This document shows positions 17,676 to 59,072 of a stretch of 64,000 nucleotides of DNA, piece by piece (positions within the stretch are counted from its first letter, which is position 1; every line of letters starts with the position of its first letter). Source of the stretch: Minisyncoccota bacterium (GTDB lineage: Bacteria > Patescibacteriota > Minisyncoccia > Phycocordibacterales > XYD1-FULL-46-19); the NCBI GenBank assembly GCA_041665625.1, contig JBAYIK010000001.1, positions 68,587 through 132,586 of the forward strand, written 5' to 3'. The notes under the pieces were generated by a model. It did not search any database. It had not been told where the DNA came from and saw only the letters and a list, made by a program, of their open reading frames with translations. The translations under genes and the position numbers were made by a program.

Positions 17676-17981
17676 ATGGACTATTCTATCGAAGCCTTCG
17701 TCGACAAACTTTTACAAGAAAAAGGGGTCACCGGTTTGCCGGCCGAAGTGATGGAGCAATTAAAAGCCGATCTTGTTGAGAGAGCGGAGAACTTAGTGAA
17801 TGCCGAGATCTTGGCCAGCATGCCGGAGTCAGCGCTTGAAGATTTCGAGAAGAAGCTCGATGCTGGTGATGAAGAAGAGCTTCGCAAGTTTTGCCAAGCA
17901 AATATTCCTAATATGGAGGAGGTGGTGGCCGGAGCCTTAATTAAACTCCAAAATATTTATCAACATGACGGAGACATTTAA
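17676..17981 (+). CDS. small acidic hypothetical protein
   Basis: 101-aa ORF; its end overlaps the start of the giant gene. Confidence 0.4.
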   Translation: MDYSIEAFVDKLLQEKGVTGLPAEVMEQLKADLVERAENLVNAEILASMPESALEDFEKKLDAGDEEELRKFCQANIPNMEEVVAGALIKLQNIYQHDGDI

Positions 17982-44788: not shown

Positions 44789-45105
44789 AATAATTAAAGG
44801 TTAACGAGTAAAGACCTCGCTGGACTAGAGTGAGGAAAGGGGTGAAGTAACCAAGTCATCGACCTATTTCTTAATCACTTCAATTATTTAGTCGATAAAT
44901 TCTTAGGGGGGTACCCGGGGTTGTTCGGTTAACATCCCTAGATTGTGGCTGGTACCATAAGGTAGCGGGGACATTCTCGCCCGTGGCGACTATTTCCAAT
45001 CTCTATTAAAAAGGCCTAATCTGACCACCCTTAGATTAGGGAAAAATTTTTGTAAAAATTTGCCAAAAGTGCTATCATCTTGTCAAGTATGAAGTTATTC
45101 TCATA

Positions 45106-46074
45106 TTGAGGAATAAGGACATTCTCCCAGTTTTTAGTAAACAAAATATGAAAAGTTATTATCGAATAATGCTTGGCCACAGGAGTATCTATGCCGAGGA
45201 TGCGTACAAGGGTAATTTTATCGCTGCCGGCTTTATTAAAGACAAAGACCTGGTTAACCATCTTTTTGACAGTCGTCGCGAGTTCAACGAGGAGTTTATT
45301 CCTATTTTTTTGAAACAAAATCCAGACAAGACAAAAGTTGGTGCTGGTCTTGCTTGTGGAATGCTTTGGACAATTGTCAAAGGTATACAAATTGGCGATA
45401 TTATTCTTTGTCCTGACGGTAAAGGAAATTATTATGTTGGTGAAGTTGTTGGCGGTTATGAGTATCGCAAGGGTGAAATTTTGCCCCATCGTCGGCCTGT
45501 TCACTGGTTTCCAAAAACAATCTCAAGAAACGAGATGAGCCAGTCATTAAAAAACTCAACTGGGGCGATTGGAACAGTCAGTGATATTAGTCGATATTCT
45601 TCTGAATTAGAATCCTTGCTTTCCGGGAATAACCCTCAGGCAATTATTACTGTAGATGACACTATTGAAGATCCCAGTGTTTTTGCTCTAGAAAAGCACC
45701 TAGAAGATTTCCTTGTCCATAATTGGAAGCATACTGAGTTAGGAAAACATTATGATATTTATGAGGAAGAAGGAGAAATTGTGGGACAGCAGTATCCAAG
45801 CGATACGGGGCCAATTGATATTCTGGCAATAAGTAAAGATAAAAAAGAAATATTGGTGGTAGAGCTTAAAAGAGGAAGAATAAGTGATGTCGTTGTGGGG
45901 CAAATTCAACGCTATATGGGTTATGTTAAAGAAGAGTTACTAGAAAAGAACCAGACAGTCCGTGGGGCCATAATTGCATTTGAGGATGATGTCAGGGTTC
46001 ATCGTGCCCTTTCTGTCGCAGCAAATATAGATTTTTATACGTATAAGGTTCATTTTGAATTAAGGAAAAAATAG
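45106..46074 (+). CDS. PUA(EVE)-like N-terminal domain fused to NucS/DUF91-like PD-(D/E)xK nuclease; putative Type IV modification-dependent restriction enzyme
   Basis: N-terminal LWTIVKGIQIGDIILCPDGKGNYYVGEVVGGYEY resembles the EVE/PUA beta-barrel pattern; C-terminal GPIDILAISKDKKEILVVELKRGRISDVVVGQIQRYMGYV matches the NucS-type PD-(D/E)xK core. Real start may be Met at 45148. Confidence 0.55.
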   Translation: MRNKDILPVFSKQNMKSYYRIMLGHRSIYAEDAYKGNFIAAGFIKDKDLVNHLFDSRREFNEEFIPIFLKQNPDKTKVGAGLACGMLWTIVKGIQIGDIILCPDGKGNYYVGEVVGGYEYRKGEILPHRRPVHWFPKTISRNEMSQSLKNSTGAIGTVSDISRYSSELESLLSGNNPQAIITVDDTIEDPSVFALEKHLEDFLVHNWKHTELGKHYDIYEEEGEIVGQQYPSDTGPIDILAISKDKKEILVVELKRGRISDVVVGQIQRYMGYVKEELLEKNQTVRGAIIAFEDDVRVHRALSVAANIDFYTYKVHFELRKK

Positions 46075-46078
46075 GTAT

Positions 46079-48640
46079 ATGACAAACTCTAAAGAAGCAT
46101 CTGCTCGAATTAAGATAAACAAACTGCTTGAAGCCTCTGGCTGGCGTTTTGGAGACGACAAAAAAGGAAAAGCTAATATACAACTTGAGCCAGGAGTTAA
46201 GTATTCCGAGCTTGGCGACGACTTTGAAAACGAAACTCACGGTTTTATTGATTTTCTTTTGCTTGACAAAGATGGCCGGGCGCTTGTGGTCCTAGAGGCA
46301 AAAAAGGAATCGATTGACCCTCTTTCTGCCAAAGAGCAAGCTAGAAACTACGCTCGTAATGTTGGAGCGCGGTTCGTCATTCTTTCTAATGGTAACATCC
46401 ATTATTTCTGGGATACTAAACATGGAAACCCTGATGCCATTTCTCGTTTTCCGACTCAAGACTCAATAACTCAATATGAAAAATACACTCCAAACCCTGA
46501 GGAATTAGCTAATACTTTGGTTGACGAGAACTACATTGCCTTAACTCAAATGCCAGGTTTAGTAAATGACCCTGCTTTCCTAAATGAGGCAACGAGAGTT
46601 GAGTTCTTAAGAAATAATAATTTAAAACAACTTCGACCTTACCAACTGAAGTCAATTAAGGCTCTTCAGGAGTCCGCCATGTCTGGTAATCAACGTTTTC
46701 TTTTTGAGATGGCTACGGGTACGGGAAAGACACTCATTTCGGCGGCTGTTATTAAATTATTCCTAAAATCTGGCAATGCCCGCAGAGTTCTTTTTCTTGT
46801 TGATCGATTAGAACTTGAGGGCCAAGCCTATAAAGCATTTAAAGCTTATCTCGGCCATGATTTTGCTACGGTTATTTATAAAGATAACCGCGATTCCTGG
46901 CAAAATGCCAGTGTCGTTGTTTCCACTATTCAAACTTTTCTCGCTGGCGATCGTTATAAAAAGGAATTCTCTCCTACCGATTTTGAGTTAGTTATCTCTG
47001 ACGAAGCCCATCGTTCTATTGGTGGTAATAGTCGAGCGGTCTTTGAATATTTTGTTGGTTATAAATTAGGTTTAACTGCCACACCTAAAAACTATATCAA
47101 GGGCGTTGACCCTGAGGGGGCGGATGTTCAGAGAGAATATGAGCGTCGATTACTTCTTGATACTTACAAAACTTTTGGCTGTGAGCCGGGCAATCCGACG
47201 TTTACCTATGATCTTCTTCAGGGTTCAAAAGACGGATTTCTTATTCAGCCGACCTTGGTTGATGCTCGAACAGAAATTACAACCGAGCTTTTGTCAGAAA
47301 AAGGCTATGCGGTTCATTCCACAACCGAGGAAGGAGAGAATGTCGATCAAGTCTTTAATGAGCGACACTATGAGCGAAAGTTCTTCAACGAAGAAACTAA
47401 TATTGCTATGTGTAAGGCCTTTATTGATAATGGCCTTTTTGACCCAGTAGCACAAAAACAGGGTGTTCAGCTTTTTGGTAAATCAATTGTCTTCTGTGTC
47501 TCACAAAAACACGCTTCGAGAGTGACCAATATTCTTAACAAATTGGCGTTTGAGAGATGGCCAGATCAATACGGTGAATCAGATTTTGCTATGCAAGTGA
47601 CCTCGCAGGTATCCAGTGCTCAACAGATGACAGTTAATTTCTCTAATAATCGTCTCGGTGGTCAAGTTAAGAAACCAGAAGGCTATGATTCTAGTAAGAC
47701 ACGCATTGCGGTAACTGTGGGAATGATGACGACAGGTTATGATTGCCAAGATTTGCTTAACATCGCTTTAATGCGCCCCGTTTTTAGTCCTGCCGACTTC
47801 GTCCAGATTAAGGGACGCGGGACCAGAAAATGGTTATTTGAGTATAAAGATTATGTTGACAAGGAAACAACTCAGATAGCTAAAGAAAGATTTAAATTCT
47901 TTGATTTCTTTGCCACTTGCGAATACTTCGAAGAAGGATTTCCTTATGACGAGAAGATAAAGCTCCCACAAATTAAAAAAGTTGTTGAATCTGAAACTTC
48001 GGGGGATAAAGCTTCGTCTCAGGGAGAATTTGTTGATGAAAAAGGTAACAAGATCTTTAAAGGACCAATTGATTTGGCTACCTCGGACGAGATTGCCTCT
48101 GTCTCCGAGACTGTTATCGGGGAAGAAGGTATGAGAATTGACCGTGAAGGCTTCAAAAGAGCCGTCGAAGAAGATATTCTCGGCAACGAGAAGCTTAAGA
48201 ATATGTGGGAGAACGGCGATACAGAGGAAGCGGAAGACTTTGCTAAAAAAGAGATTTTTGATAAGCCTAAATATTTCTTGAACCTCGATAAGATTCGTAG
48301 GATTTTTGGCGTTGATCGTCGGGTGACTGTTAAGGAATTTTTGCAGGTAGCCTTTGGTGATAAAGAAACATTTGAGATGAAGGACGATCTCTTGGAGTCC
48401 GAATGGCAGAAGTTCGTCGATATTTATGATGTTGATCAACCTCATTATCAACCCGCGAAGAATTTCTTTAAAGCCTATATCTCAGATGAAGAAGTCCGCG
48501 ACATTGTTAAGCGCAATCAACCTGCCGAATTCTATCATTGCCCGTCCTTCGACTTCGAAGATTATCAAAAACTAAACGGATATAGAGTGATCGTCCCACA
48601 ATATGTCCGTGACTATGCCTATCAATTAACAAACTTATAA
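46079..48640 (+). CDS. hsdR: Type I restriction enzyme R subunit (HsdR), compact
   Basis: N-terminal PD-(D/E)xK (DFLLLDKDGRALVVLEAKK), SF2 helicase motifs I (MATGTGKT) and II (VISDEAHRS), canonical KINKLLEASGW N-terminus. Confidence 0.85.
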   Translation: MTNSKEASARIKINKLLEASGWRFGDDKKGKANIQLEPGVKYSELGDDFENETHGFIDFLLLDKDGRALVVLEAKKESIDPLSAKEQARNYARNVGARFVILSNGNIHYFWDTKHGNPDAISRFPTQDSITQYEKYTPNPEELANTLVDENYIALTQMPGLVNDPAFLNEATRVEFLRNNNLKQLRPYQLKSIKALQESAMSGNQRFLFEMATGTGKTLISAAVIKLFLKSGNARRVLFLVDRLELEGQAYKAFKAYLGHDFATVIYKDNRDSWQNASVVVSTIQTFLAGDRYKKEFSPTDFELVISDEAHRSIGGNSRAVFEYFVGYKLGLTATPKNYIKGVDPEGADVQREYERRLLLDTYKTFGCEPGNPTFTYDLLQGSKDGFLIQPTLVDARTEITTELLSEKGYAVHSTTEEGENVDQVFNERHYERKFFNEETNIAMCKAFIDNGLFDPVAQKQGVQLFGKSIVFCVSQKHASRVTNILNKLAFERWPDQYGESDFAMQVTSQVSSAQQMTVNFSNNRLGGQVKKPEGYDSSKTRIAVTVGMMTTGYDCQDLLNIALMRPVFSPADFVQIKGRGTRKWLFEYKDYVDKETTQIAKERFKFFDFFATCEYFEEGFPYDEKIKLPQIKKVVESETSGDKASSQGEFVDEKGNKIFKGPIDLATSDEIASVSETVIGEEGMRIDREGFKRAVEEDILGNEKLKNMWENGDTEEAEDFAKKEIFDKPKYFLNLDKIRRIFGVDRRVTVKEFLQVAFGDKETFEMKDDLLESEWQKFVDIYDVDQPHYQPAKNFFKAYISDEEVRDIVKRNQPAEFYHCPSFDFEDYQKLNGYRVIVPQYVRDYAYQLTNL

Positions 48641-48643
48641 TAA

Positions 48644-51193
48644 ATGAACGCTGACACCAAAAGACATATCGATTCGGCTCGCCAAGTGTTAGTTGGGGTG
48701 GTTCCAAATCCGACTTCGCAGATAGACCAGATCACGAACGCGTTGATTTATAAGTTTATGGATGATATGGATCAGTCCGCGATTAAGGCTGGCGGTGAGC
48801 CTTCGTTCTTTGTTGGTAGTCTTGAGCGTTATGCTTGGACTCGCTTGATGGACGCTCGCATTGGCAATCAAGAGCGAATGAATCTTTACTCCGAAGCTCT
48901 ACTTAAATTCTCTGAAGCAAAACAACTGCCAGAACTTTTTAGAGGAATTTTTAAATCTGCCTTCTTACCTTATCGCTCGCCTGAAACTCTAGGTTTATTT
49001 CTTAAAGAGATTGATTATTTCGACTATTCTCATCCAGAAGAACTTGGTAATGCTTATGAATATCTGCTGTCGATAATGTCCTCTCAAGGTGACGCGGGGC
49101 AATTCCGTACCCCCCGTCACATTATCGACTTCATTGTTGACGTGGTTAACCCTACCAAAGACGATAAGGTTCTCGATCCTGCTTGTGGGACCGGTGGCTT
49201 CTTGGTGAGCTCCTATAAACATATTCTTGAACAGCATGATGGTAAAGATGACCCAGACAAGAAGGAAAAATCACTTACTCCCGACCAGCGCCGAGCTTTG
49301 GCAAATAACTTTGAAGGCTATGACATCGACCCGGGGATGGTCCGTATTGCTCAAGTTAATATGTATCTTCACCAATTTAAGAATCCAAAAATCTTTCAAT
49401 ATGATTCTCTCTCAAGTGATGAGCGTTGGAACGATAAGTTTAGCGTAATCTTGGCTAACCCACCCTTCATGTCTCCTAAAGGTGGGATTAAACCGCACAG
49501 TAAGTTTAGTATTCAATCGAGCCGAAGTGAGGTGTTGTTTGTTGATTATATAATGAATCATCTTCAGCCCAAAGGCCGAGCTGGTATTATTGTCCCAGAA
49601 GGTGTCATCTTTCAATCGGGGACTGCTTATAAACAACTCCGCAAGAATCTTGTCGAAGATGGTTTATTTGCTGTTGCCTCTTTGCCGTCAGGAGTTTTTA
49701 ATCCTTATGCCGGTGTCAAAACAAGTATCCTCTTTTTCGATAATGAGATCTCAAAGAGGACAAATGATATTTTGTTTATAAAAATTAAGAACGATGGCTT
49801 TGACTTGGGAGCCCAGAGACGACCAATTGATAAAAATGATTTGCCTGGGGCAATTAGTTTCATCAACCAATACAAAGAATATCTTGGTAATGATAAAGCT
49901 GCTCTGGCTAAACTATGGGCACATACAGGGGAAGACAAGTTCTTTTCTGTTGAGAAGGCAAAAATTTCTGAGGACGGTGACTATAATCTTTCTGGTGATC
50001 GTTACCGAGTCGCGACTGACTATTCTAACTCTAAGTGGCCGATGATAGGATTGGGAAAATTAGAAGAAGAAGGGAAAATTGAATTTTTAAGAGGTCAAGG
50101 ACTATCAAAGAGTGATTTAATTGAAGAAGGTAAAAGTAAGTGTATCCACTATGGCGAAATTTATACCTTATATGATCCCATTATTAAGAATGTCATAAGT
50201 AGGACTGATTTTGAAGGTAAGGTTACGTCATTAAAAGGTGATGTTCTTGTCCCCGCAACGACAACTGCTGATGCGATGGGGATTGCCGTGGCGAGATCAT
50301 TAAATGAGCAGGGGGTGATAATTGGGGGTGACATAAATATTATCAGAACGAGAAATAAGTTTATGTTGGCCGATTATCTAGCTTTATTAATTAGTAACCC
50401 TCCATTAAAAATAGAACTTTCTAGGTCTGCTAAGGGTGCAAACATACTCCATTTGTCAAACAGTGATTTAAAAAGGCTTCTGATTCCTCTCCCTCCGCTT
50501 GAAATCCAAGAGCAAATCGTCTCAGAGTTGGACGGCTACTCAAGTATAATTTCCGGCGCTAAACAAATCTCTCAAAACTGGAAACCTAAAATCGAGATTG
50601 ACCCTGAGTGGGAGGAGGTTAAGATAGAGGAAATCTCTGATTTAATTACAAAAGGCACAACGCCGACCACTAACGGCGGTAAATTCACGGAAACAGGAAT
50701 CAATTTTATAAAAGTTGAAAGTTTGTCTGAAACTGGTGAAATTGACCTTAAAAAAACATCTTTTATTTCTGGTGAGTGCCATGAGTCACTAAAGCGAAGT
50801 CAATTAAGAGAGAATGACATATTGTTTTCCATCGCTGGTACGAAAATGGGATTATCGGCTATCGTTTCTAAAAATATTTTACCTGCAAACACAAATCAAG
50901 CCTTGGCAATTATAAGATTAAAAAATAATACTGACCCGCAATATGTACTAAATTACTTGAGGTCTATTGCTTTAATATCGCTAATTGAAAACATTAAGGT
51001 CGGAGTTGCTCAGTTTAATCTCTCATTAAAACAAGTAGGTGAACTAGAAATACCTTTCCCTCCTCTCGAAACCCAGAAACAAATCGTAGAAAAAATCGAA
51101 GCTGAACGCATCTTGGTAGACTCTGCCAAAAAATTGATTGGGATTTATGAGAAAAAGACTAGGGAGGTTCTAGCTAAGCTTTGGGAGAAATAG
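48644..51193 (+). CDS. hsdMS: fused Type I methyltransferase-specificity subunit (HsdM-HsdS in one polypeptide)
   Basis: N-terminal half: N6-adenine MTase motifs DPACGTGGFL (I) and LANPPF (IV). C-terminal ~400 aa: two target-recognition domains each followed by a conserved LPPLEIQEQIV / FPPLETQKQIV helix. Confidence 0.8.
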   Translation: MNADTKRHIDSARQVLVGVVPNPTSQIDQITNALIYKFMDDMDQSAIKAGGEPSFFVGSLERYAWTRLMDARIGNQERMNLYSEALLKFSEAKQLPELFRGIFKSAFLPYRSPETLGLFLKEIDYFDYSHPEELGNAYEYLLSIMSSQGDAGQFRTPRHIIDFIVDVVNPTKDDKVLDPACGTGGFLVSSYKHILEQHDGKDDPDKKEKSLTPDQRRALANNFEGYDIDPGMVRIAQVNMYLHQFKNPKIFQYDSLSSDERWNDKFSVILANPPFMSPKGGIKPHSKFSIQSSRSEVLFVDYIMNHLQPKGRAGIIVPEGVIFQSGTAYKQLRKNLVEDGLFAVASLPSGVFNPYAGVKTSILFFDNEISKRTNDILFIKIKNDGFDLGAQRRPIDKNDLPGAISFINQYKEYLGNDKAALAKLWAHTGEDKFFSVEKAKISEDGDYNLSGDRYRVATDYSNSKWPMIGLGKLEEEGKIEFLRGQGLSKSDLIEEGKSKCIHYGEIYTLYDPIIKNVISRTDFEGKVTSLKGDVLVPATTTADAMGIAVARSLNEQGVIIGGDINIIRTRNKFMLADYLALLISNPPLKIELSRSAKGANILHLSNSDLKRLLIPLPPLEIQEQIVSELDGYSSIISGAKQISQNWKPKIEIDPEWEEVKIEEISDLITKGTTPTTNGGKFTETGINFIKVESLSETGEIDLKKTSFISGECHESLKRSQLRENDILFSIAGTKMGLSAIVSKNILPANTNQALAIIRLKNNTDPQYVLNYLRSIALISLIENIKVGVAQFNLSLKQVGELEIPFPPLETQKQIVEKIEAERILVDSAKKLIGIYEKKTREVLAKLWEK

Positions 51194-51196
51194 GCC

Positions 51197-51988
51197 ATGT
51201 TTAATGAAGTTGTTATGTATTTATTACAAATTCTGCAGAAATATCAAGCTCAAGATCTAACGGGTTATGCTGGTCAAATAATTCAACTCAAAAATATCCT
51301 TTATGATTGGGCAAATGGCTGCCTTCTCGAAATAAAAGATTCCGGCTCGAGGGCCAAAGGGACAGCGATTTCTTTGGCTTCAGATGTTGATTATTTAATT
51401 TCTCTTTCTAATGGGTGTAACCAAAGTAATGGGGGGTTAGAGTTTACTTTTAACCAACTCTTCCAACATTTGAAAGATCAGGGCTATCAAAACGTTAGGA
51501 AACAGAACGTTTCAACAAGAATTACCCTAGGCTCTCTTGAGATAGATATCACTCCAGCGACAAAACAGCTCGGTAATACTAGCGACCATAGTATTTGGAG
51601 ATCCAAGAACGGCACATGGCAAAAAACTAATATCCAAAGGCACATAACGGACGTTTCCCAGTCAGGAAGAATAAATGAGATAAAACTAATTAAAATTTGG
51701 AGAGAATTAAATAACTTGGACTTTCCTTCAATCTATCTCGAATACCTGATAATAAATAATGTTTTATTAAACAAGTCCACCGATGTCGCGAATCTTGGTA
51801 ACAATGTCTGGTATATCTTAACTGAATTGGCAAAAGACTACGGAAATCCGTTGTTTGCTAGGGTTGTTGATCCCGCAAATTCTAATAACATCCTTTCTGA
51901 ATTGTTAAGTCAAACAGAAAAAAATAAAATTATAAGCATGGCCAAGATATCCTCGAGCCAATCTAACTGGAACCAGATTCTCTGGTAG
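51197..51988 (+). CDS. Pol-beta superfamily nucleotidyltransferase, SMODS/CD-NTase-like
   Basis: GS-x11-DVD motif (IKDSGSRAKGTAISLASDVDYLISL) and downstream third acidic strand LEIDITPA; start 3 nt after the hsdMS stop. Confidence 0.55.
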   Translation: MFNEVVMYLLQILQKYQAQDLTGYAGQIIQLKNILYDWANGCLLEIKDSGSRAKGTAISLASDVDYLISLSNGCNQSNGGLEFTFNQLFQHLKDQGYQNVRKQNVSTRITLGSLEIDITPATKQLGNTSDHSIWRSKNGTWQKTNIQRHITDVSQSGRINEIKLIKIWRELNNLDFPSIYLEYLIINNVLLNKSTDVANLGNNVWYILTELAKDYGNPLFARVVDPANSNNILSELLSQTEKNKIISMAKISSSQSNWNQILW

Positions 51989-51997
51989 CCTTTTACT

Positions 51998-52687
51998 ATG
52001 AGTAAAAAAATTAACATTAGAAAATTATTTATGGCGCTTGATGAAGAAATGCGCCTAAAATTATCGAGTAAAATTGATGAGATTTATCATCCTACCTCAA
52101 AGGGGAGCGAGTCTGAGTTAAACTGGATCGGGCTATTAAGGACTTATTTACCAGATAGATATACTGTCGACAGTGGGTTTGTCGTTGATCATGAGGGTAA
52201 TATTAGTGATCAAATAGACGTTATTATATATGATCGTCATTTTACCCCCTTTATTTTTAGGGGTGAAAATATTGTTTACATTCCAGCAGAAGGTGTCTAT
52301 GCGATTTTTGAGGTTAAACCCCACTTTGGCAAAACCAATTATGATTATGCCGTTAAAAAATTAAACAGTGTCAAGACCTTAAAAAGAACCTCTGCTGAGT
52401 TTGCTCACATTATGGGTAAAGATAAAAAAGATCTTTTTGAAATTATTGGAGGAATCCTGACAGGAGAAAACAAAGGTAAAAAATATTTTAATGAGCTAAA
52501 TGTTAATTCCAAGCTATCAATAGCCCTTTCGCTAGATAGTGGAGTAAAGATAATTGACGGAGATCTAATGGAGGTCCAAAGTAAAGGACCCGTTCTGGCT
52601 TTTTTCTTGCTCAAGTTAATTAAAAAACTTCAGACACTTGGTACTGTCCCCGCCCTAGAGGTGGATAAATATCTAGGAGTTTGTTAA
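51998..52687 (+). CDS. hypothetical protein with PD-(D/E)xK-like core
   Basis: DQIDVIIYD ... AIFEVKPH spacing fits the D...(D/E)xK restriction-endonuclease fold; also an RTSAEFAH (Rx6H) segment. Confidence 0.4.
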   Translation: MSKKINIRKLFMALDEEMRLKLSSKIDEIYHPTSKGSESELNWIGLLRTYLPDRYTVDSGFVVDHEGNISDQIDVIIYDRHFTPFIFRGENIVYIPAEGVYAIFEVKPHFGKTNYDYAVKKLNSVKTLKRTSAEFAHIMGKDKKDLFEIIGGILTGENKGKKYFNELNVNSKLSIALSLDSGVKIIDGDLMEVQSKGPVLAFFLLKLIKKLQTLGTVPALEVDKYLGVC

Positions 52688-52693
52688 ATACTT

Positions 52694-53428
52694 ATGAACT
52701 CTCCACTTCCTTCATATCTATCGCTTCTGTGTGAAAATGAAGAAGAATTGAGGTATATTTCTGGCCTCCTTGATCAGTTTGATCTTGCTAAGACGTCTGG
52801 GTCATTTCATTTGGCTCTTTTTGCCTACCACCTACTCTTTATGACTTTTGTCTATCAGACGATCTTTAAAATAAAAATTTGGATGCCAGACAGGTTCAAC
52901 GACGCTCTCGTTCAATCGCCATCTGAAAAAAGAAAAAAATATCAGGAGTCTTCATCCGTTTGGGACCTCTCAGAATTTCGGGAAAGTTCAATCTTTGAGC
53001 TTCTTAACCTCCTTCAATCCTGTGAAGAAGAAGTCGTCAGATGTAAAAATATTATTAAGTATCGGAACCGTGGTTTTGGCCATGCGACGGGAGTACTTGT
53101 CTCAGAAGAAGAATTTGGAAAGAAAATAGAAGAATATGACCAGATGGCCTCAGAAATTCATCTATTAACTCATAACGAATTGGCCAAAATATTTGATGAA
53201 TATTTTAAGTCTCTGGATCCTACTCTAGAACAAACAAAAGACGACCTAGAGATTTATCTTATTGGCCCCAACAGGCTGAGTGACAAGGACCTGGAATCTT
53301 TGGCCGCGGAGTGCCTTATCGGAAGGACTGTTCCGCTAGAGAAAAGGAAACAGATTTTTGGGATACTTCAAGACAATTTTAATATGCACATCGAATTATT
53401 AGATTTTAAGCCCGCACAAGACAAGTGA
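52694..53428 (+). CDS. hypothetical protein with one hydrophobic helix and a HEPN-like YRNRGFGH motif
   Basis: FHLALFAYHLLFMTFVYQTIF hydrophobic segment; RNRGFGH resembles the HEPN Rx4-6H motif; no confident family. Confidence 0.35.
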   Translation: MNSPLPSYLSLLCENEEELRYISGLLDQFDLAKTSGSFHLALFAYHLLFMTFVYQTIFKIKIWMPDRFNDALVQSPSEKRKKYQESSSVWDLSEFRESSIFELLNLLQSCEEEVVRCKNIIKYRNRGFGHATGVLVSEEEFGKKIEEYDQMASEIHLLTHNELAKIFDEYFKSLDPTLEQTKDDLEIYLIGPNRLSDKDLESLAAECLIGRTVPLEKRKQIFGILQDNFNMHIELLDFKPAQDK

Positions 53429-54231
53429 CTAGCCCTCACGCATTAAAATTGTATGTTGATGGCTCCGCCTTTAGGAATCCTGGTCATGAAGGTGGCTTCT
53501 CGGTCTTTGCTGAATATCCCGATTCTTTCGGACTCTCGACATTAGAAGTGGCAAATGGGAGTTATGAGGAGACGACAAATAATCGGATGGAATTAAGAGC
53601 TTGTATTGAGGCCTTTAAATTTGCCAGAAAAGAAGTCGAGCGGCTTAAAATTCGCCATGTGATTGTGGTAACTGATTCTCATTATGTTTATAGCAATCAA
53701 TATCGAGCTATCTATTGGAAAAGAGATAACTGGGAGAATAGAGATGGTCGTCCTGTAGATAACCCAGACCTCTGGAAGGAATTTTTATCTCTTAAACAAA
53801 AGGTTAGAGCAAATCTTGAGGTTAACTGGCAGAAAGGAAAAACCACACAAATTCTTAATGCTGTTGATAAAGGAGCAAAACAGGCGGCAAAGGGGATAAA
53901 GACAACTGACTTTGGGTTTAGACGAGGCAAGATCTCAAGGACAAAGGTCAGAGGAGGAGGGATATTGATGTTTCCCGCAAACGGACAGAAAGAGATCATT
54001 AGAGTTTTTAAATATGAAAATAAAGCTATCAACGAGTGGAAGGTTTGTTTTGAATTATACTCTGAAGAGAAAGGCGGGTTTATTTCTAAACACTTTGCCT
54101 ATATACGCTCTCTTGAGAGCCTCCATCGACACGGGTATTATAAAGCTAGTTTTAATGACAACTCTCAGTACCCCCTAATTGAGATCCTTGAGGTGGTAAC
54201 TAGTCCAGAAAAGGGAATCCATCTATCCTGA
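53425..54231 (+). CDS. RNase HI domain fused to an uncharacterised ~120-aa C-terminal domain
   Basis: LYVDGSAFRNPGHEGGFSVF...TTNNRMELRACIEAF...IVVTDSHYV...WKRDNWENRDG are RNase H1 motifs; GTG start overlaps the upstream TGA (GTGA). Confidence 0.7.
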   Translation: MTSPHALKLYVDGSAFRNPGHEGGFSVFAEYPDSFGLSTLEVANGSYEETTNNRMELRACIEAFKFARKEVERLKIRHVIVVTDSHYVYSNQYRAIYWKRDNWENRDGRPVDNPDLWKEFLSLKQKVRANLEVNWQKGKTTQILNAVDKGAKQAAKGIKTTDFGFRRGKISRTKVRGGGILMFPANGQKEIIRVFKYENKAINEWKVCFELYSEEKGGFISKHFAYIRSLESLHRHGYYKASFNDNSQYPLIEILEVVTSPEKGIHLS

Positions 54232-54306: not shown

Positions 54307-55143
54307 ATGTGGCAAAAACTCTCAAAACTGATTAAATTATTGCTTAAGACCATCGCGGTTTTGTTGCTTATTGGCCTTTGGTCTACGGCTTCATACTTTG
54401 CCATAAATTACTTTGCTAAGCTGACAGAAGAGAAAAATGACTGTAATATCTCAGGGATTAGCTTGCACGGGGAAGTGGTCACCTATAACAGCGCTGATTC
54501 CTATAACGATAACGGGGACCTTGTCCGTGATCAGACCTCGGCCGATGAAGTTCTCTATATTGTTAGGCAGGCTCAATCTAATGACGATATAAAAGCTATC
54601 GTTGTCGATATTGATTCTGGTGGAGGATACCCAGAAGCGGGGGAAGAGATGATGAATGCCTTCAAGCAGTCTAAGAAGCCCGTAATAGCCTTTATTCGGG
54701 GCCAGGGGCTCTCTGCCGCTTACCTTGCTGCTACTGGTGCTCAGACAATATTCGCTTCTAAATTCTCCGATATAGGAAGTATTGGAATCACGGGTTCGTA
54801 TCTTCAAGAGACAGAGAAGAACAAGAAGGAAGGCTTAACCTATATTGACCTGAGTTCTGGTAAGTATAAGGATACGGGTAATACGGGGCGCGCCTTAACT
54901 CTGGATGAGAAGAAACTATTCATGAGGGATATTAATATCATGTTTAGCTATTTTGTTGAGATAGTGGCTAAGAACAGGAAGATAGACATCACGAAGGTGC
55001 GGGAGATTGCCGATGGTTCTAGCATGCTTGGAGACGCCGCTCTTAAGGCTGGTTTGATTGATCGAATTGGTCTATATCCTGACGTTAGGAAGTATCTATC
55101 TGAGAAGATCGGGACTGAGGCAAAGATTTGTTGGGAGAACTAG
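54307..55143 (+). CDS. membrane-anchored S49-family peptidase (SppA-like)
   Basis: N-terminal TM anchor; S49/ClpP-like core VVDIDSGGGYPEAGEEMMNAFKQSKKPVIAFIRGQGLSAAYLAATGA. Confidence 0.65.
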   Translation: MWQKLSKLIKLLLKTIAVLLLIGLWSTASYFAINYFAKLTEEKNDCNISGISLHGEVVTYNSADSYNDNGDLVRDQTSADEVLYIVRQAQSNDDIKAIVVDIDSGGGYPEAGEEMMNAFKQSKKPVIAFIRGQGLSAAYLAATGAQTIFASKFSDIGSIGITGSYLQETEKNKKEGLTYIDLSSGKYKDTGNTGRALTLDEKKLFMRDINIMFSYFVEIVAKNRKIDITKVREIADGSSMLGDAALKAGLIDRIGLYPDVRKYLSEKIGTEAKICWEN

Positions 55144-55352
55144 CTCCCAATTTCTTCCCCGCTATTGCTGACGACAAAGACAGCTTTTTTGGGATAAAAC
55201 TGTTATCAAGATAGGTTCTAGTGGTGGGAGGATTCCTCTGAGCTAGCTCTGCTGACATTAGGGGCCTTCTTTCGGATAAATCCGCAATTTGGAGGGAAAC
55301 AGAAGCTAAGGAACCCTTTAAAATAACCTTTTATCGTGATATATTATAAAAA

Positions 55353-56150
55353 ATGCCCATCAATAATGTCGATTTTAATTCTCTGGAGGTTAAGGAGTAC
55401 TTGAAAAGGTTGGATCAGGTTATTTATGATATTTTTAGCATTGTTGAGACTCATATTGAGACGAGAACAACTAATATCAATAAAAAATTAGGCTCTTACT
55501 ATCGGGATAGACTAAAAAGATTAGAAGAACTCTTAAATGAGAATTCTTGGGGGAAGAAAATAGTTAAGAGCAATAAGAAGCCTCGGACAGATCTGGTTGT
55601 CTTATTGGAGGAAAGAGACGAGTTAATTCTAAGAAAAACCAAGAAAGACTTATCTCTGATCTTGTTAGAAATTCAGGTATTAAGAAATTTGCCTCCAAAC
55701 GAAACAGAGACCGGTGTAGCAGACGAAGATTTAAAAAACTATCTCGAGGGTTTAATTTATGCCCAAAATAATAATTTAGGTATTGGTATTGCTAGCCAAT
55801 ACATAATAAAAAAGGCTGATGGGGAATACCTTTATAACAATAAGCCTATTGTTTTTCATAGTAAAAAAACTGACTACTTCAAATTATTCGATAGTCTTTA
55901 TGATATCACTAATGGAGGGGGAGAAGTCACTTATAGCGAACTTTATCGAGAATATCGCAAACATGGAGGGAAAAAGCCCAAAAAGGGGGAGACTGCGGAT
56001 GAGATAAAACACAAAATCTCAAACTTGGTAACAAGTTTCTTTTCCTTCGTCCGGGTTGACGGGAGAAAAATCTCTAGAGTCAACCTTGGGGGGCGGAATT
56101 TTATTGAGGCAATAACAATTTCAGGTCTTCGTTTTAATAATAAAAGGTAG
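55353..56150 (+). CDS. hypothetical basic protein
   Basis: 265-aa ORF, Lys-rich, no motif. Confidence 0.45.
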   Translation: MPINNVDFNSLEVKEYLKRLDQVIYDIFSIVETHIETRTTNINKKLGSYYRDRLKRLEELLNENSWGKKIVKSNKKPRTDLVVLLEERDELILRKTKKDLSLILLEIQVLRNLPPNETETGVADEDLKNYLEGLIYAQNNNLGIGIASQYIIKKADGEYLYNNKPIVFHSKKTDYFKLFDSLYDITNGGGEVTYSELYREYRKHGGKKPKKGETADEIKHKISNLVTSFFSFVRVDGRKISRVNLGGRNFIEAITISGLRFNNKR

Positions 56151-56287
56151 TTCTTATTTTTGACGACAAGGTTCTTTCTAATTCGACCTATAAGGGTCGT
56201 TTTTTTGTTGCAAACAAAGGGTAAAACGGGGAGAGCAAGAAATCGCAAGAAATAGTGAGAAGCTTTTGAGTATGGAAAAATAACACC

Positions 56288-58159
56288 ATGACAAACAATT
56301 TATCCCTCAACAACAAACGTGAAATGGCTCTTGCCTATGCCGGCTTAGGTTGGAAAATCTTCCCTTGTCACAACACAGGTGGAAATAGGTGCTCTTGTGG
56401 CAACACCAATTGTGACAAACAAGGGAAACATCCAAGAACGCCAAACGGCTTTAAGGATGCGACGAGCGATCCTTTAATAATAACTGATTGGTGGACTAAG
56501 TGGCCAGAGGCCAATATTGCAGTAGCGACGGGCAAGGTATCGGGAATTTCTGTCGTCGATATCGATTGTGAAAAAGACGACACCGGACAAGTTACAAAAA
56601 TGGGGCTTAATGAGGGGCTACCTACAACCCTAATGGCCAGAAGTGGAGGACTTGGATGGCATTATTTTTATCAATATCAAGAGGGTCTAGCAAGTAAAAT
56701 TGGATTTAGAGAATTAGTCGATTTAAAATCCGATGGTGGATATATCATCTTGCCTCCGTCAGACCATAAGTCTGGTAATAAGTATGAATGGCACAGTGAT
56801 TTAGGCAAAAATCTAATAGCACCTTTCCCCGAAGAAATTTTGTTAGAACTTTCTCAATCTAAAGGAACCAGCCAACAATTACCAATTGTTACTACAAATA
56901 ATACCTCGACTGTTCCCTTTGAGATACCAGTGGGCACTCGAAACGGAGCCTTTGCTTCAATTGTCGGGAAACTTGTTAGCCACCTCCCTGTGACTGACTG
57001 GGAATCTTGGGCTAAACCCTTGATCTTTATGGCTAACTCTGGGAACAAAGAACCTTTGCCCGAGACAGAATTACAGAGTGTCTACTCGTCAATTACCCAA
57101 AGGGAGTTGGCAAAAAGAACCTCTTCTCCGACCAAGGGCAAAATTGAAGTACTTAGCGCTAAAGAGTTAGAAGATACAATCTTCCCTGAAGCAAACTGGG
57201 CAATCTATAGTTTTTTCGAGACAGGGACGGTAAACATGATCTCTGCGGAGCCCAATAACTACAAGAGTTGGGTGATGCTAGATGCCGCGGTTTCTCTCGC
57301 TTCCGGACGGCCGCTATTTGGCCAATTTAAGACTGAAAAACAGTCTGTCCTTATCGTTAATGAAGAGGATTATCACTCTCAGCTAAGGACAAGAATGATG
57401 ATGATTGATAAGAATTGGAGTCAGTTACCTATATACTTCGCTATCCAAAATGGGGTAAAACTAATTGATAGCGACATTGAGAAGATTATCAGTCTGGCCA
57501 AAGAAAAGGGGGTTGGTTTCATTATCTTTGATTCACTGCGAAGTCTTCACTCGGCCGAAGAAAACAGCTCGACAGAGATGCAAGCGGTCCTTGATCAGTT
57601 AAAAAAGGTCACTAAAGCTGGTTTTACCGTCCTATTTAGCCACCATAATCGTAAAAAGGGGATTTCTTCTTCTGATAATGGTAATGAATCACGCGGAAGC
57701 TCGGGGATAAACGCGGCCGTTCATGGCCACATAACCTGCGAACCGAAAGAGGAGGGAGGACAAACCTTTTTAATCATCTCTCAGCCAAAACTAAAGGGTG
57801 GTCCCAAGATGGATCCGTTTCGCGTGAGAATTGATCTAAGTAGCGATAAACCCTTCGTTTATGACGGAGTTTACAGCAAGGGGCTGACCAAAAACGAACT
57901 CGAGGAAGAAATAATCAAATTATTAGAATTCCACGAGGGGAAGGGACTAGATGTTGGCCACTTTTTAGCCGCAAATATTGCCGGGGATAGGAGGCTGAGA
58001 GAAACTCTCCGCACAATGTCAGGAGATCAGACGATTACCGCAATCCTCTGGAAAGATGTCCAAAAATCAGGGCTACCTGTGGCTAGTGAAGGGGTTAATC
58101 CCAATGAGAAGTTCTATTTTTTGCCGGATAGCTTAATAAATGATGATATTCCACCTTAA
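56288..58159 (+). CDS. bifunctional primase-polymerase (Prim-Pol) N-terminal domain fused to RecA-like/AAA_25-type domain with degenerate Walker A
   Basis: PrimPol N-terminal signature: GWKIFPC...GKHPRTPNGFKDATSD...ANIAVATG...SGISVVDID. C-terminal RecA-fold layout: FIIFDSLRSLHS Walker-B-like; AEPNNYKS in the Walker A position. Confidence 0.75.
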   Translation: MTNNLSLNNKREMALAYAGLGWKIFPCHNTGGNRCSCGNTNCDKQGKHPRTPNGFKDATSDPLIITDWWTKWPEANIAVATGKVSGISVVDIDCEKDDTGQVTKMGLNEGLPTTLMARSGGLGWHYFYQYQEGLASKIGFRELVDLKSDGGYIILPPSDHKSGNKYEWHSDLGKNLIAPFPEEILLELSQSKGTSQQLPIVTTNNTSTVPFEIPVGTRNGAFASIVGKLVSHLPVTDWESWAKPLIFMANSGNKEPLPETELQSVYSSITQRELAKRTSSPTKGKIEVLSAKELEDTIFPEANWAIYSFFETGTVNMISAEPNNYKSWVMLDAAVSLASGRPLFGQFKTEKQSVLIVNEEDYHSQLRTRMMMIDKNWSQLPIYFAIQNGVKLIDSDIEKIISLAKEKGVGFIIFDSLRSLHSAEENSSTEMQAVLDQLKKVTKAGFTVLFSHHNRKKGISSSDNGNESRGSSGINAAVHGHITCEPKEEGGQTFLIISQPKLKGGPKMDPFRVRIDLSSDKPFVYDGVYSKGLTKNELEEEIIKLLEFHEGKGLDVGHFLAANIAGDRRLRETLRTMSGDQTITAILWKDVQKSGLPVASEGVNPNEKFYFLPDSLINDDIPP

Positions 58160-58244
58160 ACCACGCCTGGCACCTAGCATAACCTAGAGGTTGTTGCCAG
58201 GTGCCAAGTAACTTATTAGGTAAATTAACTAACAAATAAAAAAT

Positions 58245-58838
58245 ATGAATGATTATAGTTTAGAGGTCAAGGAAGAAGAGCTTCTTAAAGAAAAAAGAAC
58301 TCTATGGGATACTCTTGTTAAAAGAGGAGAAGAAATTGGTGTTGAAGATGGGGCAAGAGAGATTGTTGTGGCTCTTAATGCCAATAACCTCCCAACGGCC
58401 TGGTCCTGTGGTGGACATGTTGATACCTCAATCGAGCAAACAGATGATTATTGGCAGAGAAACCCCTGGGTCTATTTTGAGTTATGTGAGCACCATACTT
58501 ACCCCTCAGAAGATTCCGAAGAGGGTCGGGCCTCGGCTGCTCTTTTTGAAGTCAGGAAGGGGATGACAACAGAGGTTCCTGAGCTTATTGAAGAATTTTA
58601 CAAAACAAGAACTCCACAAAATGGAGTTCGGTTAATGTTTTCTAAGGTGGGCGGATTGGATTACTTATATCGACTTGACGCGGTAAGTGATGGGCCAGAC
58701 ATTATAACGGAAGATTGTGACCTTTCTTGTCTGAATCAGAAACTTTTTTACCAACAAGAAGAGATGAGGGCTTTTGCAAAGTTCTTAGAAGATCGCTACT
58801 TATCCCCCTCTCGACCAATTAGTCATGAAAGGGGTTAA
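58245..58838 (+). CDS. acidic hypothetical protein
   Basis: 197-aa ORF, no motif. Confidence 0.45.
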   Translation: MNDYSLEVKEEELLKEKRTLWDTLVKRGEEIGVEDGAREIVVALNANNLPTAWSCGGHVDTSIEQTDDYWQRNPWVYFELCEHHTYPSEDSEEGRASAALFEVRKGMTTEVPELIEEFYKTRTPQNGVRLMFSKVGGLDYLYRLDAVSDGPDIITEDCDLSCLNQKLFYQQEEMRAFAKFLEDRYLSPSRPISHERG

Positions 58839-59072
58839 ATTAGTGGTTAAATTAACTTGATGTTAAAATGAAGAAACTACACGAAGACGATGACAAAATA
58901 GTTAATATTGTGTCCAGCGAAGGGCAACGAGGGTCTTTGTGTAGTAACAAGATGTCTTCTCGTTGCCCTTCTTTGGATTATGAAGATATTGGCGCATCTG
59001 GCTCAGTTAGCGACGCTTACGATATTCTTTTTAATAAAACGGTCGAAGTTATAAATAATAGGAAAATATTAT

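What the first reader, a model, noticed from the sequence alone, without database searches (positions are those of the whole stretch)
48644..51193. HsdM and HsdS fused in a single 849-aa polypeptide next to a compact HsdR
The N-terminal half carries complete N6-adenine MTase motifs (DPACGTGGFL, NPPF). The C-terminal ~400 aa has the two-TRD plus conserved-helix architecture of a Type I specificity subunit (LPPLEIQEQIV and FPPLETQKQIV after each TRD). Type I systems normally encode M and S separately. An M-S fusion with a separate R subunit of only 853 aa is unusual. It may represent a streamlined Type I or Type IIG-like variant. No second hsdS fragment or inverted repeats for TRD shuffling were seen.
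Basis: seen in the sequence. Interest (0 to 1): 0.5.

Follow-up and report, generated by a model that had tools for sequence, protein, structure and literature searches.

The report
Type I restriction system, M–S fused
This is a real, intact two-gene restriction-modification system in which the methylase and the DNA-recognition subunit of a Type I enzyme are one protein next to a separate motor-nuclease; the layout is conserved in hundreds of bacterial species and has engineered and structurally solved relatives, so it is a tidy but not surprising variant.

Summary
ORF 48644-51193 encodes one uninterrupted 849-aa protein. It contains an HsdM-like N6-adenine methyltransferase (motifs at residues 178-187 and 272-275), joined by about 10 residues to a complete HsdS (TRD1-CR1-TRD2-CR2). 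A Type IB-like HsdR (853 aa) ends 3 nt upstream.

The fusion is not an assembly artefact. The identical protein occurs in independent assemblies. All 120 best database homologues carry both domains. In 82 related loci from many phyla, the same R gene accompanies M~S wherever enough flanking DNA exists (77/77). No locus has a second hsdM within 8 kb.

The M domain is conserved and both TRDs are hypervariable. TRD types are swapped between positions 1 and 2, as in classical Type I systems.

The architecture matches 'Type IMS', a name coined for engineered EcoKI and Sau fusions. Its nearest solved relatives are Vibrio vulnificus HsdR (3H1T) and its natural single-TRD M~S (7EEW).

An R of about 850 aa is normal for Type IB. 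The layout is widespread, occurring in at least 592 species genomes.

One question stays open. There is one tail-less M domain per two TRDs, so it is unclear how the second half-site gets methylated.

Verdict: new member of a known kind, modest interest.

The parts
46079..48640 (+). hsdR: 853-aa restriction/motor subunit, Type IB-like. PD-(D/E)xK: D58 in GFIDFLLL (nt 46241-46264) and E73-A-K75 in VVLEAKK (46286-46306). SF2 motifs: MATGTGKT (46709-46732), DEAH (46997-47014), TATP (47072-47086), QIKGRGTR (47804-47827).
   Evidence: ResIII 8.7e-38; HSDR_N_2 1.4e-8; EcoAI/FtnUII R family, 219 bits, residues 13-711; best PDB hit 3H1T, V. vulnificus HsdR. Orthologue found directly upstream of M~S in 76 of 77 informative loci.
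48644..51193 (+). hsdMS: single 849-aa M~S fusion (stop codon 51191-51193); starts 3 nt after the hsdR stop.
48644..49153 (+). M N-terminal all-helical domain (residues 1-170), HsdM_N-like.
   Evidence: AF2 secondary structure. Aligns to the N-terminal parts of EcoKI M and StySJI M. Column conservation is 0.6-0.9.
49154..50005 (+). Gamma-class N6-adenine MTase catalytic domain (residues 171-454). Includes motif I DPACGTGGFL (49175-49204) and motif IV NPPF (49457-49468). Ends in YNLSGDRY (49982-50005). No C-terminal tail helix follows.
   Evidence: motif residues invariant in 61 sequences; alignments to classical HsdM end here, whereas those chains run 13-58 aa further.
50006..50035 (+). About 10-residue M/S linker (residues 455-464). 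Its length is constant in most of the family. pLDDT is below 50.
   Evidence: the spacer from RY to the W of TRD1 is 10 residues in 40 of 65 proteins; no conserved slippery heptamer.
50036..50488 (+). TRD1 (residues 465-615), hypervariable.
   Evidence: (column conservation 0.2-0.3).
50489..50614 (+). Central conserved region CR1 (residues 616-657; helix 619-645), starting at LPPLEIQEQIV.
   Evidence: (conservation 0.5-0.7).
50615..51055 (+). TRD2 (residues 658-804), hypervariable.
   Evidence: (best Methylase_S stretch 655-819).
51056..51190 (+). Distal conserved region CR2 (residues 805-849; helix 808-847), starting at FPPLETQKQIV.
45050..45078 (+). Candidate sigma-70-like promoter (TTGTAA-17-TATCAT with TG) ahead of the tightly packed co-directional gene run 45148-54231. 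Consensus match only.
   Evidence: Intergenic gaps are 3-4 nt between the PDC-S02-like gene, hsdR, hsdMS and the cyclase gene.

Best explanation
The locus is a functional two-gene Type I restriction-modification system of the EcoAI-like (IB-like) lineage. It has the 'Type IMS' layout: a separate motor-nuclease R (853 aa) and a single M~S polypeptide (849 aa).

Shown by sequence:
- R has an intact PD-(D/E)xK nuclease and SF2 helicase motifs.
- M~S has the HsdM N-domain and a gamma-class m6A catalytic domain with invariant SAM and NPPF motifs. After a linker of about 10 residues comes a full specificity module, TRD1-CR1-TRD2-CR2.
- The classical C-terminal tail helix of HsdM, which normally anchors M to the S coiled coil, is absent. 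The covalent link takes its place.

Inferred:
- The two TRDs read the two halves of a bipartite asymmetric target.
- The fused M methylates the adenine presented by TRD1.
- R docks on M~S, and at unmethylated sites it translocates DNA with ATP and cuts at a distance.
- There is only one M per two TRDs, and no second hsdM exists. The most likely solution is that two M~S protomers cooperate as (M~S)2R2, with the second protomer lending its M domain in trans to TRD2, so that both strands are methylated.

Identity as a Type I/IMS system: about 0.9. The trans-M oligomer step: about 0.5.
For: Domains and motifs.

Structure: the AF2 model has mean pLDDT 82.7 with the expected domain order. Best structural matches are HsdM and HsdS chains, with the V. 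vulnificus M~S(1/2) fusion 7EEW ranked first.

Not an artefact: the identical protein occurs in independent assemblies. All 120 best homologues carry PF02384 plus PF01420.

Conserved module: R lies upstream on the same strand in 76 loci, convergent in 1, and the other 5 lack upstream DNA. No extra M-domain ORF lies within 8 kb.

Type I-like evolution: the M domain and the CRs are conserved while both TRDs are hypervariable. TRDs are reassorted, and 147 cross-position TRD1/TRD2 pairs share at least 60% identity. The usual Type I 'guest' genes (Fic/DOC, RhuM, four-helix-bundle, AlbA_2-like) are inserted between R and M~S in about 15 loci.

Precedents:
- Engineered EcoKI and S. aureus M-S fusions restrict and modify with a separate HsdR. 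The Sau fusion methylates both strands and may dimerise (PMC3510504, PMC6158711).
- The natural V. vulnificus M1S1/2 fusion assembles as a dimer that recapitulates M2S1 (as cited in PMC12429846).
- TstI, which also has one catalytic unit per two TRDs, works as a homotetramer (PMC4027205).
Against: No activity, methylome or stoichiometry data exist for this protein or any two-TRD orthologue I could find. The M domain lacks the tail helix that anchors classical M subunits to S, so it is unclear what would hold a second M in trans. The AF2 pTM is only 0.55, so inter-domain geometry is not reliable, and multimers could not be modelled. In vitro, the engineered EcoKI fusion needed added free HsdM (PMC3510504).
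Confidence: 0.65

Rival explanations
1. Split Type ISP-like mode. One M~S binds one R (R1M1S1). Only the half-site under TRD1 is methylated, on one strand, and TRD2 merely lengthens the recognition sequence. R translocates in one direction set by site orientation, and cleavage needs head-on collision of two enzymes. Self DNA would be protected after replication by the same logic as in Type III and Type ISP systems.
For: There is one M per polypeptide and no second hsdM within 8 kb in 82 loci. The M domain has no tail helix for docking a second M on the CRs. R plus a single-TRD M~S (849 + 677 aa in E. coli plasmids) adds up to about the size and domain order of Type ISP enzymes (domain order described in PMC3874165; the size comparison rests on my own knowledge).
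Against: The R nuclease is HsdR_N-type and R is closest to EcoAI-family Type I R, not to ISP enzymes. The M domain is closest to HsdM chains. TRD types are freely shared between positions 1 and 2, as expected if both present an adenine to an M domain. The related single-TRD fusion forms a symmetric dimer (PMC12429846, citing Seo 2022). Engineered two-TRD fusions methylate both strands (PMC6158711).
Confidence: 0.2
2. Classical R2M2S1-like complex built from one M~S plus one free M. The free M would come from the same gene by proteolysis of the linker or premature termination, as proposed for the engineered EcoKI fusion.
For: The EcoKI MSFusion needed extra HsdM in vitro, and traces of free M co-purified with it (PMC3510504). 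The Sau MSfus co-purified with a clipped M-containing fragment (PMC6158711). The linker at 455-464 is predicted disordered, with pLDDT below 50. One orthologue (L030) has an in-frame TAA exactly at the junction.
Against: A freed M would lack the tail helix needed to bind S. There is no conserved slippery heptamer or other conserved nucleotide feature at the junction: only 6 of 65 loci have a heptamer, and at different positions. Selection has kept the frame open in 70+ divergent orthologues.
Confidence: 0.1
3. Assembly or sequencing artefact: a lost stop codon or frameshift has joined separate hsdM and hsdS genes.
For: Classical hsdM and hsdS are often adjacent or overlapping, so a single-base error could fuse them (PMC3510504). 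One relative, L030, does have a stop at the junction.
Against: The identical ORF occurs in three independent assemblies. The same in-frame junction with a constant linker of about 10 residues appears in orthologues at 41-78% identity from many phyla. The M tail that a simple read-through fusion would retain is absent.
Confidence: 0.01

Closest known systems
Vibrio vulnificus YJ016 Type I system: HsdR_Vv (PDB 3H1T) and the natural M1S1/2 fusion methyltransferase (PDB 7EEW; Seo et al. 2022, cited in PMC12429846)
   Same: Separate EcoAI-like (IB-like) R of about 820-850 aa. It is the best PDB sequence hit for the window's R (3H1T, E 3.5e-28). M is covalently fused to a specificity module. 7EEW is the top structural match of the AF2 model. 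It is collinear across the M/TRD junction with the single-TRD members of this family.
   Different: 7EEW has one TRD and one CR and dimerises to give 2 M: 2 TRD. The window protein has two different TRDs and two CRs in one chain, i.e. 1 M: 2 TRD. Sequence similarity to the window protein is confined to the M domain. The 'M-tail helix' reported for 7EEW (recalled from the abstract, not checked here) has no counterpart in the window protein.
Engineered 'Type IMS' fusions: EcoKI MSFusion (PMC3510504) and S. aureus CC398-1 MSfus (PMC6158711)
   Same: HsdM is fused in frame to a two-TRD HsdS and works with a separate HsdR. The authors' definition of Type IMS (M fused to S with one or two TRDs, separate R) fits this locus. 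Both fusions restrict and modify in vivo.
   Different: They are laboratory constructs made from Type IA and Sau1-type systems, and they keep the full HsdM C-terminal tail. The window system is natural, IB-like and tail-less, and belongs to a large conserved family.
Classical Type IB systems (EcoAI family)
   Same: R is closest to the EcoAI/FtnUII R family. M is a gamma-class HsdM-like MTase. S has the TRD-CR-TRD-CR plan with hypervariable, reassorting TRDs.
   Different: In classical systems M and S are separate genes and M carries a tail that binds S. Here R scores 219 bits against a family cut-off of 550, so it is a relative and not a member of that equivalog.
Single-chain Type IIB/IIG enzymes AloI, CjeI, TstI
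   Same: A gamma-MTase is fused to two C-terminal TRDs, which gives the same 1 catalytic unit : 2 TRD puzzle (PMC3874165). TstI resolves it by forming a tetramer (PMC4027205).
   Different: Those enzymes carry an N-terminal PD-ExK nuclease in the same chain, have no ATP-dependent motor and cut at fixed positions. Here the nuclease sits on a separate SF2 motor subunit.
Type ISP enzymes (LlaGI, LlaBIII)
   Same: Same set of modules (nuclease, SF2 motor, gamma-MTase, TRD). The combined size is similar.
   Different: ISP enzymes are one polypeptide with a single TRD and an Mrr-like nuclease, and they methylate one strand. Here there are two polypeptides, two TRDs and an HsdR_N-type nuclease.

Membership tests
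Type I restriction-modification (classical definition) | R subunit with a PD-(D/E)xK nuclease plus an SF2 helicase-like motor | tested here: met
   HSDR_N/HSDR_N_2 and ResIII domains are present. The D58...E73-x-K75 nuclease motif, Walker A MATGTGKT, DEAH, TATP and QxxGRGxR are all present. The best PDB hit is a Type I HsdR.
Type I restriction-modification (classical definition) | HsdM-type gamma-class N6-adenine methyltransferase with an N-terminal helical domain | tested here: met
   N6_Mtase E 1e-51. Motifs I and IV are invariant in 61 sequences. Sequence and fold matches go to EcoKI, StySJI and T. tengcongensis HsdM.
Type I restriction-modification (classical definition) | Specificity module with two variable TRDs alternating with two conserved helical regions | tested here: met
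   Two Methylase_S stretches. The AF2 model shows TRD1, helix 619-645, TRD2, helix 808-847. Conservation profile and TRD reassortment agree.
Type I restriction-modification (classical definition) | R, M and S are three separate subunits, and M is anchored to S by its C-terminal tail | tested here: not met
   M and S are one ORF. Alignments to classical HsdM end at YNLSGDRY, and the S alignment starts about 10 residues later, so there is no tail.
Type I restriction-modification (classical definition) | R2M2S1 stoichiometry, bipartite target methylated on both strands, ATP-driven translocation and distant cleavage | not testable with these tools
   Needs a methylome and biochemistry. Multimer modelling was not available.
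'Type IMS' (Roer et al. 2012, PMC3510504) | HsdM fused to HsdS (one or two TRDs) in one polypeptide | tested here: met
   The definition is quoted.
'Type IMS' (Roer et al. 2012, PMC3510504) | A separate HsdR subunit encoded with it | tested here: met
   hsdR ends 3 nt upstream. The pairing is conserved in 77 of 77 informative loci.
EcoAI/FtnUII R family (Type IB), NCBIfam NF046051 | Score above the curated equivalog cut-off (550 bits) | tested here: not met
   219 bits over residues 13-711. It is the best-scoring R family, but the window's R is a relative and not an equivalog.
Type IIG / IIB single-chain enzymes (AloI, MmeI, BpuSI) | Nuclease domain in the same polypeptide as the MTase and TRD, and no motor subunit | tested here: not met
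   No nuclease domain in M~S; the N-terminus is helical and HsdM_N-like. Eco57I and MmeI_Mtase Pfam hits cover only the shared MTase core. The partner has a full SF2 motor.
Type ISP | All functions in one polypeptide with a single TRD | tested here: not met
   Two genes and two TRDs.
MADS (mad2 MTase / mad5 S) and BREX PglX | Score above the curated NCBIfam cut-offs, plus the other system genes nearby | tested here: not met
   MAD2 scores 117 bits against a cut-off of 720. MAD5 scores 61 against 400. PglX models score 34 bits or less against 400-900. No other MADS or BREX genes were seen among the neighbours.

The most novel reading that the evidence does not exclude
The two-TRD, tail-less M~S with its single R may work as a 'split Type ISP' enzyme that reads a bipartite site. 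One M~S would bind one R. Only one strand, at the TRD1 half-site, would be methylated. Translocation would be unidirectional, and cleavage would need head-on collision of two complexes. That would be a naturally widespread mechanistic intermediate between Type I and Type ISP/III systems. It would also bear on the long-standing '1 catalytic unit : 2 TRD' puzzle noted for AloI and CjeI.
Probability: 0.2. Interest if true: 0.6.

Novelty: new member of a known kind. Interest (0 to 1): 0.3.

Why it matters
The locus shows that the 'Type IMS' layout is a common natural solution. That layout was built in the laboratory as a hypothetical evolutionary intermediate between Type I families and Type IIB/IIG/ISP enzymes. 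Here it is tied to an EcoAI-like R and spread across many phyla, especially Patescibacteria, and a single-TRD version occurs on E. coli IncF plasmids.

Annotation pipelines call these genes only 'N-6 DNA methylase' and 'DEAD/DEAH box helicase'. As a result, complete Type I systems may be missed in defence-system and methylome surveys.

The family also offers a clean natural test case for a stoichiometry question: how does one methyltransferase domain serve two recognition domains?

Tried and rejected
(1) Artefactual fusion. Rejected by independent assemblies and the conserved in-frame junction.

(2) A hidden second hsdM or hsdS, or an hsdS shufflon. None found in the 64-kb window, none within 8 kb in 82 loci, and no meaningful direct or inverted repeats.

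(3) Programmed frameshifting or an internal start producing free M or S. There is no conserved slippery heptamer. The Met in the W-P-M motif belongs to the conserved start of TRD1, which parallels W-E-x-V at the start of TRD2. This was not tested beyond sequence.

(4) The PDC-S02-like nuclease upstream, or the cyclase/NucC-like pair downstream, as obligate partners. Rejected: the nuclease is present in 1 of 82 other loci and the cyclase in 2 of 82.

(5) 'HsdMS' in the Pseudomonas literature as a natural fusion. It denotes two separate genes.

(6) Literature searches for a described natural two-TRD M~S plus R family found none in the held library. REBASE could not be consulted, and Seo et al. 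2022 is not held.

(7) MADS, BREX, Type IIG and Type ISP membership. Rejected; see the membership tests.

(8) AF2 inter-domain geometry was not used, because pTM is 0.55.
Full report
**Observation.** The ORF at 48644..51193 (+) is intact, starts with ATG and encodes 849 aa.
- DPACGTGGFL, residues 178-187
- NPPF, residues 272-275
- LPPLEIQEQIV, residues 616-626
- FPPLETQKQIV, residues 805-815

Pfam finds N6_Mtase at 132-458 (E 1e-51) and two Methylase_S stretches (E 4e-26). PADLOC Type I MTase models cover residues 3-457, and Type I specificity models cover roughly 477-835. The gene immediately upstream (46079..48640, 853 aa, 3-nt gap) is an HsdR. It carries HSDR_N-type nuclease and ResIII motor domains, and its best NCBIfam match is the EcoAI/FtnUII Type I R family. 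It has D58...E73-A-K75, MATGTGKT, DEAH, TATP and QIKGRGTR motifs. There is no other M or S fragment in the whole window. There are no repeats that would indicate an hsdS shufflon.

**Is the fusion real?** The identical 849-aa product is encoded on a 293-kb ENA metagenome contig, on a Logan assembly of a different run and on a JGI contig. The 120 best homologues among 5.8 billion proteins share 53-78% identity. Nearly all of them align over the full query, are mostly about 800-860 aa long, and all carry both PF02384 and PF01420. A scan of one genome per species found at least 592 loci encoding a relative. The best 80 (41-72% identity) come from Patescibacteria, Gammaproteobacteria, Bacteroidota, Spirochaetota, Planctomycetota, Verrucomicrobiota and others. 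The junction is stereotyped: YNL(S/T)G(D/E)RY, then a spacer of about 10 residues, then W-P-M-V-x-L-G at the start of TRD1. A missing stop or frameshift in this window can be excluded.

**Conserved gene module.** I searched the ORFs of 82 related loci with the window's R, M half and S half.
- An orthologous R (E down to 0, about 840-870 aa) lies upstream on the same strand in 76 loci.
- R is convergent downstream in one locus (L035).
- The remaining five loci have no upstream DNA.
- In 61 loci the two genes abut.
- In 15 loci there is a gap. Where an ORF could be recognised, the gap holds genes known as guests of classical Type I operons: Fic/DOC, RhuM, four-helix-bundle and AlbA_2/Schlafen-like.
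- No locus has a second M-domain ORF within 8 kb.

The PDC-S02-like nuclease upstream of the window's R recurs in only one other locus. The cyclase/NucC-like pair downstream recurs in two. These genes are therefore island neighbours, not parts of the system.

**Anatomy of M~S.** The AF2 model built on 61 sequences has mean pLDDT 82.7 and pTM 0.55. It shows the following layout:
- an all-helical N-domain (residues 1-170)
- a Rossmann catalytic domain with a small C-terminal subdomain (to 454)
- a disordered linker (455-464)
- TRD1 (465-615)
- a 27-residue helix, CR1 (619-645)
- TRD2 (658-804)
- a 40-residue helix, CR2 (808-847)

Foldseek against the PDB ranks HsdM and HsdS chains at the top, led by 7EEW, the 'intact MTase' of Vibrio vulnificus YJ016. 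Profile alignments to classical HsdM chains (EcoR124I, PacII M1, S. thermophilus M) stop at the YNLSGDRY motif, whereas those chains continue for another 13-58 residues. The alignment to PacII S starts at the same profile position. The fusion therefore lacks the C-terminal M tail that anchors classical M subunits to the S coiled coil. This is inferred from the alignment boundaries.

**Evolutionary behaviour.** Across 71 full-length family members, mean column conservation is as follows:

| Region | Conservation |
|---|---|
| M domain | 0.6-0.9 |
| TRD1 | 0.2-0.3 |
| CR1 | 0.5-0.7 |
| TRD2 | about 0.3 |
| CR2 | about 0.6 |

TRDs are reassorted. The window's TRD1 is 93% identical to that of P0002, but its TRD2 is closest to P0008 (88%). 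TRD types also move between positions. There are 147 TRD1/TRD2 cross-position pairs at 60% identity or more, and the window's TRD1 is 68% identical to the TRD2 of P0023. In L053 the two TRDs are 83% identical to each other. This is the signature of a working Type I specificity module in which both TRDs matter.

**Variants in the family.**
- Single-TRD forms: L024 (655 aa), L028 (668 aa) and a 677-aa protein on E. coli IncF plasmids. The E. coli protein sits next to an 849-aa R and occurs in 78 of 5426 complete E. coli genomes, always on a plasmid.
- A shared frameshift between CR1 and TRD2 in L010 and L023, giving M~halfS plus a separate halfS.
- An in-frame TAA exactly at the M/S junction in L030.
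- A 1513-aa form with a C-terminal TPR extension in L057.

The E. coli single-TRD protein is collinear with 7EEW across the M/TRD junction (residues 246-651 against 214-629), and its R again hits 3H1T best.

**What is known.** Roer et al. fused EcoKI hsdM and hsdS. They found the fusion restricts and modifies in vivo with HsdR, and named the layout 'Type IMS' for M fused to S with one or two TRDs plus a separate R. In vitro the fusion needed added free HsdM (PMC3510504). Bower et al. made the same fusion in a S. aureus system. It methylated both strands of the bipartite site (about 76% of sites), cleaved DNA with HsdR without added M, co-purified with a clipped M-containing fragment and may form dimers (PMC6158711). 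A natural M fused to a half-S was reported for V. vulnificus YJ016, and two such chains recapitulate M2S1 (PMC12429846 citing Seo et al. 2022). The R of V. vulnificus YJ016 has 817 aa and was assigned to Type IB (PMC2777439). Hence the window's 853-aa R is ordinary for this lineage. Single-chain Type IIB enzymes such as AloI, CjeI and TstI share the 'one catalytic unit, two TRDs' problem, which Loenen et al. called a mystery (PMC3874165). TstI forms a homotetramer that bridges two sites (PMC4027205). In the held library I found no paper describing the natural two-TRD M~S plus R family. 'HsdMS' in Pseudomonas papers refers to two separate genes. REBASE could not be consulted.

**Mechanism.** What is shown: all catalytic motifs of R and M are intact and conserved, the S module is complete, and the two genes are co-inherited. 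What is inferred: M~S recognises a bipartite target and methylates adenine, and R docks on it, translocates and cuts unmodified DNA.

The open step is how the TRD2 half-site is methylated.
- I favour (probability about 0.5) cooperation of two M~S chains, with one M acting in trans. The reasons are that TRDs are interchangeable between positions, that single-TRD relatives dimerise, and that the engineered fusions and TstI show oligomerisation and two-strand methylation.
- The main rival (about 0.2) is an ISP-like R1(M~S)1 enzyme that methylates one strand and needs head-on collisions. The missing M tail and the strict absence of a second M fit that model.
- Free M produced by proteolysis or termination (about 0.1) is less likely. 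A freed M would have no tail to bind S, and no conserved recoding signal exists at the junction.

**Context.** The system lies in a tightly packed co-directional gene run from 45148 to 54231, in this order:
- a PDC-S02-like nuclease
- R
- M~S
- a SMODS cyclase
- a NucC-like DUF6602 protein
- an unknown 244-aa protein
- an RNase H-like protein

An S49 peptidase, a primase-polymerase/AAA_25 protein and a serine recombinase follow. It is a defence cluster on a mobile island.

**Verdict.** However, the layout is widespread, has a name and has solved and engineered relatives, and the R is of normal size. I rate it a new member of a known kind, with modest interest (0.3). The residual interest lies in the unresolved 1 M: 2 TRD stoichiometry of a tail-less natural fusion.

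Noticed in passing
window 45148-46074 (+): A 308-aa PADLOC 'PDC-S02' candidate defence protein (E 1e-156). It combines DUF8426 with a NucS_C-like PD-(D/E)xK nuclease domain and ends 4 nt before hsdR. The same gene order (PDC-S02-like, R, M~S) occurs in L011 but in none of the other loci.
   Followed up: partly
window 51197-51988 and 51998-52687 (+): A short SMODS-type oligonucleotide cyclase (263 aa; PADLOC cyclase E 1e-78) and a NucC-like DUF6602 effector (229 aa; E 4e-75) start 3 nt after the M~S stop. This looks like a minimal CBASS-like pair. The same pair sits beside an R + M~S module on Paracoccus zhejiangensis plasmid pPZ02 (L081). A cyclase directly follows M~S in L041.
   Followed up: partly
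window 52694-53428 and 53425-54231 (+): A 244-aa protein with no Pfam or PADLOC hit overlaps by 4 nt a 268-aa RNase H-domain protein. Both lie in the same co-directional run as the defence genes. Function unknown.
   Followed up: no
window 54307-60767 (+): An S49 peptidase (54307-55143), a primase-polymerase/AAA_25 protein (56288-58159) and a large serine recombinase (59073-60767). They suggest the defence cluster sits on an integrative mobile element.
   Followed up: no
L082 (E. coli plasmid NZ_CP116482.1) 4403-11951: E. coli IncF plasmids carry a relative of this system: an 849-aa R and a single-TRD 677-aa M~S, followed by a TrlF-family AAA-like ATPase. PGAP annotates the first two only as 'DEAD/DEAH box helicase' and 'N-6 DNA methylase'. 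The R + M~S pair is found at 99% identity or more in 78 of 5426 complete E. coli genomes, always on plasmids.
   Followed up: partly
L057 7950-12536: An Owenweeksia MAG encodes a 1513-aa M~S with an extra C-terminal extension of about 640 aa rich in TPR repeats.
   Followed up: no
L030 1900-1990; L010 ~9900-10100; L023 ~9900-10500: Natural breaks of the fusion. L030 has an in-frame TAA exactly at the M/S junction, giving M of 454 aa and S of 386 aa. L010 and L023 share a frameshift between CR1 and TRD2, and both chains end ...ERERDDILV..., giving M~halfS plus a separate halfS.
   Followed up: partly
L053 (M~S 437-2941): TRD1 and TRD2 of one protein are 83% identical. This predicts a nearly palindromic bipartite target, for which a single M domain could methylate both strands by binding in either orientation.
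   Followed up: no
L026, L033, L040, L044, L045, L051, L068, L071, L079, L080 (between R and M~S): Genes inserted between R and M~S include Fic/DOC (L045, L051), RhuM-like (L044, L068), four-helix-bundle proteins (L033, L079, L044) and AlbA_2/Schlafen-like proteins (L068, L080). These are the usual guest genes of classical Type I operons.
   Followed up: partly
window 17965-21858 (+): A 1297-aa ORF with no Pfam hit at E<=0.001.
   Followed up: no
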